DNA of 60,118 nt from Octopus sinensis (lineage: Eukaryota), in the NCBI RefSeq assembly GCF_006345805.1, contig NW_021833112.1, positions 1 to 60,118 of the forward strand. The letters run 5' to 3'. How positions within the stretch are numbered: position 1 is the stretch's first letter; each line of letters starts with the position of its first letter. Below, piece after piece: positions 23,362-54,937 of this stretch. A program made the position numbers and the translations under genes. A model generated the notes under the pieces. That model saw only the letters and a list, made by a program, of their open reading frames with translations. It did no database searches and had not been told where the DNA came from.

Positions 23362-23787
23362 ACTCTCTTTTACTCTTTTGCTTGTTTCAGTCATTTGACT
23401 GCGGCCATGCTGGAGCACCGCCTTTAGTCGAGCAAATCGACACCCCCAGGACTTATTCTTTTTGTAAGCCCAGTACTTATTCTATCGGTCTATTTTGCCG
23501 AACCGCTAAGTAACGGGGACGTAAACACACCAGCATCGGTTGTCAAACGATATTGGGGGGACAAACTCAGACACACAAACACACACACACATACATATGT
23601 ATATATATATATACATATATACGTCAGGCTTCTTTCAGTTTCCGTCTACCAAATCCACACACAAGGCATTGGTCGGCCCGGGGCTATAGCAGAAGACACT
23701 TGCCCATGATGCCACGCAGTGGGACTGAACCCGGAACCATGTGGTTGGTTAGCAAGCTACTTACCACACAGCCACTCCTGCGCCTAT
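23362..23787 (-). mobile_element. SINE family D, full length, with internal microsatellite
   Basis: Reverse complement of 39932-40340; SINE head duplicated at 23771-23810. Confidence 0.9.
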
Positions 23788-23811
23788 ATACGCCACTCCT
23801 GCGCCTATATG

Positions 23812-25060
23812 TAGCAAACTCATGGAGAACAGCGATAATCTGCCCAATTTTCAAGAAAGGGAGCCGCGAAGACCCGCTTAACTACCGACCGGTTTCCCTT
23901 ACATCAATTATCAGCAAGATGTTCGAAACCATCCTTAAGAAAAGTATGATGCTCCACCTCCTAAACACAGCCTCTATCTCTGATTCCCAACACGGCTTCG
24001 TGCCGAAGAGATCATGCTTGACCAACCTACTAGTAATGGAAGAATTGGTGACGCGCATCCTCGATGGTTCGCGGTCCGACGTCTCCAGTGCGAGCAGTGG
24101 CGTGCCTCAAGGTTCAGTGCTTGGGCCCTTGTTGTTCTTAGTCTTCATAAATGACTTGCCCGACGACCTCACGCAACACACCCTTCTATTTGCCGACGAT
24201 ATCAAACTGGTCGCTCCTCGCGGTAATATAGAGGATCTTCGTCGATGCCTCCACCAAATTTGGAAGTGGTCTAACAATTGGGACCTGTGTCTGAACGTGT
24301 CAAAGTGCTGTCATCTGCCTGTCGGCTCTACTCCTGCAACTCAATTTGATTTCGAGCCGGGTCGTCTGCTGCTGGAGAGGACCGATCAGGTAAAGGACCT
24401 TGGTATCTTGGTGGATTCCTCCTTTTCGCCTTCGGCCCAGTGCGTCCATGCTGCCAACAAAGCACGCGGAATTCTGTTCTTGATTCGACGGTCATTCGGA
24501 ATGCTCACAGCAGCCATATTCCTACCACTCTATGTCACGCTGGTGAGACCCATATTGGAGTATGGGATTCAAGCCTCTTCTCCTTATCTCCTCAAAGACA
24601 TACAGCATCTCGAAAGAGTCCAGAAGCTGGCTACCCGCATGGTTCATGGTCTCAAAAATTTGTCCTACGAAGAAGGCTGAGGACGCTCGACCTTTATTCT
24701 CTTGAAAAACGCCGCCGCCGTGGTGATCTCATTCTCGCCCACAACATCATAAGCGGAAAGTGTAACCTCTCGAAAGAGCTGTTCTTCACTCCTGCTCCAG
24801 AACGTCGGCTGCGGGGTCATTCCGAAAAGCTCTACCTGCGACGATTTCATCTCAATCGAAGGAGAGGAGCTTTCTCCGTCCGGGTTGCGGATCCGTGGAA
24901 CAAGCTGCCAGACGAGATGGTGAGATGGCTTTGTTCAAAGCCTCCCTTGACCTCAAGTGGCCTGAACTCTTTACATGAACACCACCCTGTACTTAACTCC
25001 ATGTCCCCCTACATGGCCTTGCTATTTGCTTTTGAGCCAAATTAACTAACTAACTAACTT
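23812..25060 (+). mobile_element. 5'-truncated CR1-type LINE; RT with internal deletion and frameshift; (AACT)n tail
   Basis: WRTAIICPIFKKG, NYRPVSLTS, QHGF, SGVPQGSVLGPLLF, FADD, KDLG motifs; frameshift near 24676; C-terminus LRGH...FSVRV..WNKLP; tail TTAACTAACTAACTAACT. Confidence 0.93.
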
Positions 25061-26153
25061 ATAACTGGATCACTGCTAGTGAAAAAAAATTTGTGTAAAA
25101 CAGTTGATAAGCAAGTGACATTGTTATCACGAAGTCAATCGAACAGAACGCTGGACTAATGCCGAACCTAGTTATGTAGGGATAAATTCCGAAAAACAAG
25201 TGAAGCATCCAAGTAGTTGGCCAACCAAAGTACTGAACCACAAGTAATAAGTTATCGCCAATCAAAATTTGAAACTACATCCTAAATGCTGATATATACA
25301 AAGCAATTTCCGCTGAAAACAATTCAAGCCCTCGACAGTAAAACCAGCGAAGAAGAACTGTTTTCATGCACTACGACAAATATATATTTTTTCTTTTCTC
25401 TTTAAAAACCTCATCGTATCTATTTTTAGAATAATGAATTATATCAAGAATTTGTTTATATTATTCATTACTCTGAAAATTACTGAACTAAGAAAGATGC
25501 GTGATCGTTATGAAATTCGTTAATCATTTGAAATTTTATTTTCTAATTTGGGTGAAATTTTGTGAATATTGAAACTTGTCTGAACGTTTGATGTTTTCAA
25601 GTATGTTTTATTGAAATTCCTCATGTACATTCAGTCCTTCCTAATATCGTTTTTATTTATGATTGGAAAGCAATAGTTGAAACCGGTATGGTATCTTAGC
25701 ATATTTGTAAAAAAATATCTATAACTTCAGTTCCTTTTAAGGGTCAAGTTCATTTTGAATCCGTATATTAACGCTTCTATATTCTTTACTGCATAGCAGA
25801 AAATTCTTCTCAATATCTCTCTCTTTCTATCGGGATTGATATATCATTATGCAGATGCACAAACACAGACACATATACATGCACACACACATACATAAAC
25901 TGAAAGAGAGAGAAGGAAAAAGAAACAAAACAGACAGAGACAGAAAGAGTAAGAGAACGAGAAAGATAATGTATTCCTAGTTGTAATATATATACATAAA
26001 ATACAAGAGTATCCCTTTTGGAATTACTTGGTTATCAGTCTAATATAACGCCATTACGGGCATATTTGAGCAAGACTTATTTAACACACCATATTGCATA
26101 GGCAATACTGTATATAAAGTACTTAGTTTATATACATACACGGTCTATATATC

Positions 26154-26188
<35 letters not shown>

Positions 26189-26192
<4 letters not shown>

Positions 26193-27540
26193 AATCATTG
26201 CGATAGATAAAAAAATAATTATAATCTGGTATACTAACACAAGCATATATTTTTCATATATATTAAGGCAATATGCTAGGAATACAGAAGCTTGATAAAA
26301 GTGAAATGAGATAAACATTTACTAACCGGAAAATTCTCAGATGCAGTTCTTTCTAATTCAGCAAACGATATTTATTTGCCCAGGGAGAATTCATCATGAG
26401 ACTGTTTTTTGGATCCTAACTCACTAGAAGCATGTGCGTCTAATGAGTACTCTTCTACTAATCATATCTGACTAACGTCCAGGACAACACTAGGGAATTC
26501 TGGATATCGCCTGGCGCTCATAATTTATCGAGAAATATGTAACAATCAAATTGCGATAGAATATATTTAATCGCTGGTATTACTAACACAAGCCATATAT
26601 TTTTCATATATCAGTACATGCGAAATATGGCTAGGAATACAGAGCTTATATTAATAAGATCTTACTAAACCGGAAATTTCAACTGCAGTTTCTTTCATTC
26701 ACAAACAGATAATTATCAGGGAGAATTCATCATAGACCTGTTTTTCTGATCCTAACTCACGAGAAGATGTGTAATGAGTAACTAATCATATCACTGCGCA
26801 GAAACGTCCCGACACACTAGGGAATCTGGTTATCTGGCGCTCTAATTTATCGAGAAAATGTAAACAAATCATTGCGATAGATAAAAAAATAAATAACGAT
26901 GGACTAACACAAGTCATAATCAGTACATTAAGGCGAAATATGTGCTAGTACAGAAGCTGATAATTAAGTGAAATGAGATAAAAACATACTAACCGGAAAA
27001 TCTCAGACTGCGTTCTTTCTAATCAGCAACAAGATAATTATTTAGGGAGATTATCAGTGAGACCCTGTTTTTCTATGGGATCCTAACTCACAGAAGCATG
27101 TGCGTCTAATAGTTACTCTTCCTAATATCATAACTGCGCAGACTCCGAACGTCCCACATAGGGAATTTGGTATATCGCCTGGCGCTCATAATTTATCGAG
27201 AAATAGAACAAATCATTGCGATAGAATAAAAAATAATTATAATCGCTGGTATACTACACAAGCCATATATTTTTCATATATCAGTACATAAGGCGAAATA
27301 GCTAGGAATACAGAAGCTGATAAATTAAGTGAAATGAAGATAAAAACATTACTAAACCGAAACATTCTCAACTAGTTTCTTTCTAATTCAGCAAACAAGA
27401 TAATTTATTTGCCCGAGAATTCATCAGTGAGACCCTCTGGGATCTAATCATAGAAGCATGTGCGTCTAATGAGTTACTCTTCCTAACTAATCAATCACTG
27501 CGCAGACTACGAACGTCGACAACACTAGGGAATTCTGGTA
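26189..27540. repeat. Tandem array of 3.9 copies of a ~409-nt master unit, each copy carrying different short deletions
   Basis: Copies 26189-26540, 26541-26861, 26862-27206, 27207-27540 share collinear anchors (TTGCGATAG, CATATATTTTTCATATAT, GATCCTAACTCAC, TAGGGAAT, TAATTTATCGAGAAA). Confidence 0.95.
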
Positions 27541-27592
27541 TGTATGTCTGTATGTATATATATCTGTATGTATATATATATATATAATAATA

Positions 27593-27623
<31 letters not shown>

Positions 27624-27791
27624 ATACATACAGACACACACATAAATATATATATATACATACACACACACAAACATACACACACACACACACAGAGACA
27701 CACATATATATATATACATACATATAAAGGAACGTTTAATATTTCAGACGTCATTGATATTTATCGCAAACCACACCTTACTCACATCAGT

Positions 27792-54613: not shown

Positions 54614-54937
54614 AGGCGAATGTTAAGAATACACCCGGTGTTTAGGGTTAGGTTTAGGGTTTTAGGATTAGGATTTGGGGTTTGGGTTAAAGTTTAGGGT
54701 TACAGTTTGAGTTTAGGGTTATGTCAGTGTTTAGGGTAAGGGTTAGGGTTAAGTGTTAGGTTAAGCTAGGAGATTTTGTTTCGTCGAAAACGGCTGGTGT
54801 ACGTATTCTTTACCTCCGCCGTTTATGCAATGTTAGGGTAAGGTTTAGGCATTAGGGTTAGAATTAGGTTTAAGGGTTTTGTTACGCCGAAACAGGTGGC
54901 GTACAATGTACACTGTACATAATCCTTAGCTTCGCCC
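54614..54937. repeat. Degenerate interstitial (TTAGGG)n tracts within a TIR-bounded element
   Basis: TTAGGG variants at 54640-54762 and 54832-54876; GGCGAATGTTAAGAATAC is inverted to GTATTCTTTACCTCCGCC. Confidence 0.75.

What the first reader, a model, noticed from the sequence alone, without database searches (positions are those of the whole stretch)
26189..27540. Tandem array whose copies differ almost only by complementary deletions
Seen: four head-to-tail copies of 352, 321, 345 and 334 (truncated) nt, sitting between two microsatellites. By my hand alignment each can be derived from one ~409-nt master purely by removing many short segments (mostly 1-5 nt, about 11-21% of bases), with essentially no substitutions needed. 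Each copy lacks different bases, so the master exists only as the union. Every other repeat pair in this window is either nearly identical or diverged mainly by substitution, so this spectrum is anomalous. Inference: either a deletion-biased copying process (rolling-circle or reverse-transcription concatemer) or distributed storage of a sequence no single copy holds. The mundane alternative is an unpolished long-read consensus across a collapsed satellite.
Basis: partly seen in the sequence, partly recalled or inferred. Interest (0 to 1): 0.88.

Follow-up and report, generated by a model that had tools for sequence, protein, structure and literature searches.

The report
Assembly-eroded ribozyme repeat array
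The four ragged repeats are copies of a 400-base mobile repeat that sits intact at hundreds of other places in this genome and carries a predicted self-cutting RNA motif, and their scattered missing bases are most likely a genome-assembly error rather than biology.

Summary
The pattern is in the sequence: against one natural 400-nt unit, the four copies lose 216 bases in 115 deletions, with 7 substitutions and 3 insertions. But the 'master' is not hidden: it lies intact in the same genome (346 exact hits of one 15-mer). Its arrays start at one fixed base beside (TA)n (57 of 59), end variably, and carry an atypical type I hammerhead-like motif (162 of 180 units, 0 of 5000 shuffles). This is likely a non-LTR-retrozyme-like, Penelope-mobilised repeat. 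The deletions are likely a long-read consensus artefact. They are independent between copies (no genealogy). Similar patches sit inside otherwise near-perfect arrays elsewhere in the assembly. Every indel shown by public-run contigs laid on the array puts bases back (15 of 15 rows). A toy graph consensus mixing reads with and without the array reproduces the spectrum (109 events/228 bases versus 115/216). No read evidence ties those runs to this allele, so a real private allele is not formally excluded. Low interest for the flagged feature; modest for the repeat family.

The parts
26146..26188 (.). (TA)n microsatellite at the fixed end of the array; likely insertion target
   Evidence: TRF row 26146-26189; 57 of 59 other arrays start at unit base 1-3 directly after a TA-rich run
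26189..26540 (-). Copy 1 (352 of 400 nt; 28 deletions, 49 bases); 26189 is the family's fixed end, the inferred 3' end on the ribozyme strand
26541..26861 (-). Copy 2 (321 of 400 nt; 36 deletions, 79 bases)
26862..27206 (-). Copy 3 (345 of 400 nt; 32 deletions, 57 bases)
27207..27540 (-). Copy 4, truncated at unit base 364 (inferred 5' truncation); 19 deletions, 31 bases
26335..26401 (-). Eroded remnant of the hammerhead-like motif in copy 1 (6 bases lost)
26678..26736 (-). Eroded remnant of the hammerhead-like motif in copy 2 (14 bases lost)
27001..27062 (-). Eroded remnant of the hammerhead-like motif in copy 3 (11 bases lost)
27366..27432 (-). Eroded remnant of the hammerhead-like motif in copy 4 (6 bases lost; CUGAUGA box intact at 27427-27421)
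27541..27724 (.). TA/TATG/CA microsatellite at the variable end

Best explanation
The array is a 3.9-unit copy of a genome-wide 400-nt tandem repeat with a predicted hammerhead ribozyme, and its 216 missing bases were most likely removed by the long-read consensus step of the assembly, not by a cell. SHOWN: intact units are common; arrays have one fixed end at (TA)n and one variable end; the deletions are independent between copies and almost free of substitutions; similar patches occur in other arrays of this assembly. INFERRED (artefact): reads of unequal length were merged at this locus, most likely an allele with the array and one without it or with fewer units, at low depth. Reads lacking the array count as depth but support no base, so true bases score near or below zero; the consensus path then takes the deletion errors of individual reads while rejecting their insertions and substitutions. 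Short-read polishing could not repair it because reads map better to intact copies elsewhere. INFERRED (biology of the repeat): a multimeric transcript self-cleaves at the hammerhead, the monomer circularises, and a Penelope-type RT/GIY-YIG enzyme primes at a nicked (TA)n and copies round the circle, leaving head-to-tail arrays with a fixed 3' end and a truncated 5' end.
For: Intact master: 220 matches, 346 exact 15-mer hits with 0 for the reversed control, copies are subsequences of one natural unit. No genealogy: loss per base matches independence, and the 12 shared deletions of 102 distinct ones fall in mutually incompatible patterns such as 1+3, 1+2, 2+4, 2+3. Spectrum: 115 deletions against 4 non-family substitutions; deleted bases per 100 rise from 9-16 to 25 mid-array and fall to 3 at the end. 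Assembly-wide bias: private differences within other arrays are 312 deletions, 106 insertions, 93 substitutions. Recurrence: L126 unit 3 has 23 deletions/58 bases beside units missing 5-6 bases; in L129 one unit is reduced to ~220 nt of A/T-rich noise between units with 0-1 substitutions. Public-run contigs: all 10 indel rows and all 5 are 'put in', none 'left out'; at 27414 the bases are restored in 25049.8 of 25078.7 depth (X1) and 7710.5 of 7715.3 (X2). Unique flanks are matched with 0, 0 and 1 differences over 547 bases and 0 over 241 bases in X1, X2, X18, and the LINE fragment ~1.1 kb away is 98% identical to its family, so the damage is local. No second copy of either flank was found in the assembly, consistent with both alleles collapsed in one consensus. 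Simulation: 4 full + 2 empty reads with deletion-rich errors gave 109/228/74/11 (events/bases/1-nt/longest) with 1 insertion and 0 substitutions, against 115/216/75/11 observed; 3+2 with insertion-rich errors gave 92/219/60/19; 10 full reads alone gave 0-17 events. Precedent: spurious deletions at heterozygous loci that Pilon could not fix (PMC6211649, passages); errors in repeats escape short-read polishing (PMC8812927, passages). Ribozyme: motif in 162 of 180 units, 0 of 5000 shuffles; the common core variant lies at the free position 7 (A 98, U 77 of 180); units differ by 1.5 substitutions within and 6.2 between arrays.
Against: No raw long or short reads of the assembled individual were seen. 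The laid contigs come mostly from other copies of the family, so they show the family's sequence, not this allele's. The simulation is a toy: its scoring rule is recalled from pbdagcon, it uses the true template as backbone, and the close matches are 2 of 45 settings; many settings delete far more or far fewer bases, and one-unit-fewer alleles gave 13-58 events. The assembler and read type are unknown. The window's copies (19-36 events) lie mostly beyond the tail of 253 other units (max 23). One-base deletion sites do not correlate with those in other arrays once run length is fixed. The hammerhead lacks the G10.1-C11.1 pair (A opposite A in 154 of 180 units), Rfam gave no hit in the unit, no RNA was examined, and no autonomous partner shares its sequence among 44 GIY-YIG loci.
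Confidence: 0.88

Rival explanations
1. The deletions are real and were made in one event by a slip-prone reverse transcriptase that skipped short stretches while copying round the RNA circle, each turn independently.
For: Independent deletions per copy and near-zero substitutions would also follow from one error-prone copying event; the array has the ends of a retro-copied concatemer.
Against: The same family left 253 other units with a median of 4 deletion events. Eroded patches elsewhere cover single units or parts of units inside near-perfect arrays, including A/T noise no polymerase would write (L129). Laid contigs restore the bases. A simple consensus model reproduces the spectrum.
Confidence: 0.04
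2. The stretch is a single uncorrected long read (for example a gap fill) left unpolished inside the contig.
For: Small unplaced contig; error load of about 14%; errors in repeats resist short-read polishing (PMC8812927 passages).
Against: Simulated raw reads carry 33-108 insertion events and 29-67 substitutions over this length (error rates recalled), against 3 and 7 observed.
Confidence: 0.05
3. An old insertion that has decayed in the genome under a deletion-biased mutation spectrum.
For: Short deletions outnumber insertions in neutral decay of many animal repeats (recalled).
Against: Only 4 non-family substitutions in ~1350 aligned bases mean the copy is young; 115 deletions against 4 substitutions reverses the usual ratio (recalled); the neighbouring LINE fragment shows 5-7 substitutions and 3-4 gaps per kb.
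Confidence: 0.02
4. Distributed storage: four partial copies jointly encode a master that no single copy holds.
For: No base of the first 364 is lost from all four copies.
Against: Independence predicts 0.1 such bases, so nothing needs explaining; the master exists intact in hundreds of copies.
Confidence: 0.005

Closest known systems
Non-LTR retrozymes of animals (Cervera and de la Pena 2020, PMC7229834; Li, Clavereau and Pollet, bioRxiv 10.64898/2026.07.22.740005)
   Same: Head-to-tail units of a few hundred bases (400 nt, GC 35%), 1 to about 30 per array, dispersed over many chromosomes, no long ORF, a type I hammerhead-like motif in each unit, Penelope-like elements in the same genome.
   Different: Stem II starts with A opposite A instead of G10.1-C11.1 and is long (44 nt insert); strict insertion beside (TA)n with one fixed end that is ~175 nt from the predicted cleavage site; expression, cleavage and circular RNA untested; no cephalopod example found in my searches.
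Hammerheads and pseudo-LTRs of Penelope-like elements (PMC4209133; PMC8557442)
   Same: Short palindromic helix III (CUGCAG), 5-bp helix I, extra base after A9, 5' truncation, one 5' inversion (L143), (TA)n targeting.
   Different: No RT/GIY-YIG ORF; no sequence match to 44 GIY-YIG loci of this genome (best E 0.48); G10.1-C11.1 absent.
Spurious deletions in long-read consensus at heterozygous or repeated loci (PMC6211649; PMC8812927)
   Same: Deletion errors that survive short-read polishing, located in a repeat.
   Different: Much denser here (14% of bases over 1.5 kb); I found no paper describing this deletion-only erosion of a whole insertion (searches, listings only).

Membership tests
Non-LTR retrozyme | Short tandem units (dimers to multimers) of low GC, dispersed in the genome | tested here: met
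   400-nt unit, GC 0.35; 1-17 full units per array in 59 arrays plus one of about 30; on many contigs
Non-LTR retrozyme | Type I hammerhead core (CUGANGA, GAAA, UH) with helix I and short palindromic helix III in consecutive units | tested here: met
   162 of 180 natural units, 0 of 5000 shuffles; 0 of the 4 window copies keep it
Non-LTR retrozyme | No protein-coding capacity | tested here: met
   Stop-to-stop frames of 41-74 aa, one of 129 aa across a unit with single-base deletions, in the two-unit stretch examined
Non-LTR retrozyme | Transcribed, self-cleaved and circularised RNA | not tested
Non-LTR retrozyme | Sequence link to the pseudo-LTR of an autonomous Penelope-like element | tested here: inconclusive
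   No match in 44 GIY-YIG loci (30 plus 14 longer stretches; best E 0.48); 147 matches were listed from 150 of 5029 candidates scored; a TA-ending family with 780-aa ORFs exists
Canonical type I hammerhead ribozyme | G10.1-C11.1 pair closing helix II | tested here: not met
   A opposite A, then UUCU/AGAA, in 154 of 180 units; not filed as canonical
Canonical type I hammerhead ribozyme | Match to an Rfam hammerhead model | tested here: not met
   No hit inside the unit at E <= 5 in L005, L006, L008
Autonomous Penelope-like element | RT plus GIY-YIG ORF | tested here: not met
   Arrays are bounded directly by microsatellites with no coding part
Long-read consensus artefact | Reads of the assembled individual lack the assembled variants | tested here: inconclusive
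   Contigs laid on the array restore the bases, but none could be tied to this allele
Long-read consensus artefact | Same error type recurs in patches elsewhere in the assembly | tested here: met
   L126 unit 3, L129, L044 unit 7; 312:106:93 private deletions:insertions:substitutions

The most novel reading that the evidence does not exclude
The deletions are real: one retrotransposition event in which the reverse transcriptase, rolling round the ribozyme-made RNA circle, skipped 1-11 bases about every 14 bases without miscopying, a deletion-only copying mode never described, frozen in the genome as four independently eroded turns.
Probability: 0.04. Interest if true: 0.85.

Novelty: not a real feature. 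Interest (0 to 1): 0.15.

Why it matters
The flagged feature most likely tells about the assembly, not the animal: deletion-only, genealogy-free divergence from an intact repeat family is a usable signature of consensus erosion, and it probably marks polymorphic recent insertions. The repeat underneath is of modest interest. It is a young family (hundreds of near-identical units) that behaves like a non-LTR retrozyme with unusually clean ends: a fixed end at (TA)n away from the predicted cleavage site, variable truncation, clonal arrays. That makes it a good system to test the proposed but unproven circle-templated, Penelope-driven insertion model, and whether a hammerhead without G10.1-C11.1 cleaves as a dimer. 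If the deletions were real, they would reveal a new error mode of reverse transcription.

Tried and rejected
Holes in read cover (not used as evidence, as the tool warns that a filter drops records): 1160 of the array's 1322 31-mers are absent from 35 other loci and, if real, would give private contigs up to about 601 and 211 nt; the longest records listed on the array were 54-69 nt in X1, X2, X18 (24 of 566 pieces shown). No contig crossed the right array-flank junction in X1, X2, X18 or X3 (25 of 55 pieces shown), so neither the presence of the array in those samples nor hemizygosity could be shown. Raw-read run X21 laid 0 reads (3% of the run read): no test. Search for a second haplotype of the flanks in the assembly: none. 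Rfam: only microsatellite-driven miRNA hits below threshold. Free folding of the unit (z = -2.5) does not form the hammerhead, as expected for a 1-bp helix III but no support. Autonomous partner: none among 44 loci; an 18-nt match across the unit junction to the 781-aa ORF has E 0.48 and was taken as chance. Alignment of four hammerheads had a wrong coordinate for one row and was discarded. Site-by-site deletion hot-spot correlation with other arrays: weak overall (rho 0.13) and nil within run-length classes; homopolymer enrichment only mild (43 of 75, expected 46%, p 0.035). The idea that the loss equals half a unit because alleles differ by one unit was not borne out by simulation (13-58 events). 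tRNA scan: none. Earlier findings: none by place, sequence or words.

Full report
OBSERVATION. The window is a whole small contig (G000:C9583, 60118 bases) of a 2.7-Gb assembly in 13516 contigs; the animal group is not named by any search (I guess a cephalopod from composition and size). TRF does not report the array. Aligned to one natural unit taken from elsewhere in the genome (L006:1490-1889, 400 nt), the copies need only 3, 1, 4 and 3 bases beyond pure deletion, whereas shuffles reach a common subsequence of about 232-245 bases. In total 115 deletion events remove 216 of 1564 bases; 75 are single bases, the longest is 11; there are 7 substitutions (3 of them the base that 165 of 180 family units carry) and 3 insertions.

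THE MASTER IS NOT HIDDEN. Copy 1 matches at least 220 places (37 of 394 candidates scored) and one 15-mer has 346 exact hits, 0 for the reversed control. I fetched 35 arrays chosen from the best BLAST hits (biased towards similarity to copy 1) and 26 stretches covering 25 more arrays from the first 100 listed pattern hits. Of 59 arrays with that end in view, 58 start at unit base 1-3 and 57 do so directly after a TA-rich run; the other end falls at 42 different positions in 59 arrays. One array has an inverted piece at its variable end (L143). Units differ by 1.5 substitutions within and 6.2 between arrays, and 8 of 25 arrays with three or more units have an array-private substitution in at least 80% of units (first 35 loci). 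The window's array has the same anatomy: fixed end at 26189, truncation at unit base 364.

WHAT THE REPEAT IS. On the minus strand each intact unit reads UCUCA-CUGANGA-(44 nt stem II)-GAAA-CUGCAG-UC-UGAGA: a type I hammerhead core with a 5-bp helix I and a palindromic helix III. My scan finds it in 162 of 180 units and in 0 of 5000 dinucleotide shuffles; the only common variant in the core is at the free position 7. It lacks the G10.1-C11.1 pair (A opposite A in 154 of 180), which Cervera and de la Pena call highly conserved (PMC4209133, parts 1-2 of 4 read), and Rfam has no hit in the unit, so I do not file it as a canonical hammerhead and its activity is untested. Tandem low-GC units of a few hundred bases with type I hammerheads define non-LTR retrozymes, proposed to spread through circular RNA copied by Penelope-type RTs (PMC7229834, passages and Discussion; bioRxiv 10.64898/2026.07.22.740005, parts 1-3 of 5; its supplements are closed and may list families I could not see, though its species include no mollusc). 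5' truncation, 5' inversion and (TA)n targeting are Penelope traits (PMC8557442, passages). The genome holds many GIY-YIG loci (147 matches from 150 of 5029 candidates), including a young family with 780-aa ORFs that ends at (TA)n, but none of 44 loci examined shares sequence with the unit. Searches for retrozyme with octopus or cephalopod returned only general papers (listings); repeat libraries were not available, so the family may already be catalogued. Verdict: works like a non-LTR retrozyme (likely); membership incomplete.

WHY THE DELETIONS ARE PROBABLY NOT REAL. (1) No descent: bases lost in 0-4 copies are 194/135/31/4/0 against 194.9/132.9/32.7/3.4/0.1 under independence, and the 12 shared events of 102 conflict with any tree. 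(2) No age: 4 non-family substitutions against 115 deletions. (3) The loss peaks mid-array and fades at the ends; unique flanks agree with public-run contigs at 0-1 differences and the LINE fragment at 23823-25066 is 98% identical to its family. (4) The assembly shows the same bias elsewhere: 312 private deletions, 106 insertions and 93 substitutions in arrays of two or more units; of 253 full units the median is 4 deletion events, the 95th percentile 10, the maximum 23; L126 has one eroded unit among near-intact ones, and L129 has a unit turned into ~220 nt of A/T noise between near-perfect units (not counted among the 253). (5) All 15 indel rows from contigs of three studies laid on the array put bases back. 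These contigs mostly come from other copies, so this shows only that the eroded forms are not what the family reads like; holes in cover and the missing junction contig are not used as evidence (see Tried and rejected).

HOW THE ARTEFACT COULD ARISE (inferred). Simulated raw reads give 33-108 insertion events and 29-67 substitutions and do not fit. A toy graph consensus (edge count minus half the depth, rule recalled from pbdagcon; true template as backbone) is nearly clean when all reads carry the array, but becomes deletion-only when some reads lack it: 6 full + 4 empty gave 38-40 events with no insertion or substitution. Across 45 settings the output ranged from 0 to about 140 events; 4+2 with deletion-rich errors gave 109 events, 228 bases, 74 single-base, longest 11, and 3+2 with insertion-rich errors 92, 219, 60, 19, close to the observed 115, 216, 75, 11. 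This shows sufficiency, not proof; the real pipeline is unknown. No second haplotype of the flanks is in the assembly, so alleles are probably collapsed here. Spurious deletions at heterozygous loci that survive Pilon are reported (PMC6211649, passages), and reads prefer error-free repeat copies during polishing (PMC8812927, passages). I found no paper on this exact erosion pattern (one search concerned hammerhead variants; listings only).

VERDICT. Observation partly confirmed; interpretation as exotic copying or storage not supported; artefact 0.88, with the mixed-allele step about even odds among artefact routes. The flagged feature is scored as not real (interest 0.15). The underlying repeat is a likely new member of a known kind and is worth a line in a retrozyme survey. 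No earlier scan findings bore on it.

Noticed in passing
window 23823-25066 (+): Young LINE 3' fragment with RT-like frames (23514-24680, 24350-25045; CR1/L2-like by recalled motifs), 98% identical to dozens of copies, with a 162-bp internal deletion and a frameshift relative to them.
   Followed up: partly
L129:1642-2240 (minus-strand coordinates; G000:C1 near 118353000): In an array of about 30 near-perfect units, one unit is replaced by ~220 nt of A/T-rich noise, probably a consensus of out-of-register reads.
   Followed up: partly
L126:2884-3226 (G000:C3 near 155306000): A second eroded unit (23 deletions, 58 bases) among near-intact neighbours.
   Followed up: partly
L143:2398-3115: Array with an inverted piece at its variable end, like the 5' inversions of Penelope-type insertions.
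   Followed up: no
L082-L085, L088, L090: Young high-copy element with an intact ~781-aa ORF ending in a GIY-YIG domain, a preceding 479-aa frame in two copies, and a fixed 3' end abutting (TA)n; candidate mobiliser, no sequence link to the 400-nt unit.
   Followed up: partly
L055, L084, L089: Other type I hammerhead motifs with palindromic helix III near GIY-YIG loci, most with a G at 10.1.
   Followed up: no
L135 and L136 (G000:C2, about 126 kb apart); L128: The same one-unit insertion with the same flanks appears twice on C2, and L128 holds the same 1.2-unit array twice 600 bp apart: local duplication or haplotype duplication in the assembly.
   Followed up: no
L038:3021: The one array of 59 that starts mid-unit (base 167, next to the predicted cleavage site) with a non-TA flank.
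   Followed up: no
window 54640-54765: Degenerate GTTTAG/GGTTAG run resembling an interstitial telomere-like repeat.
   Followed up: no
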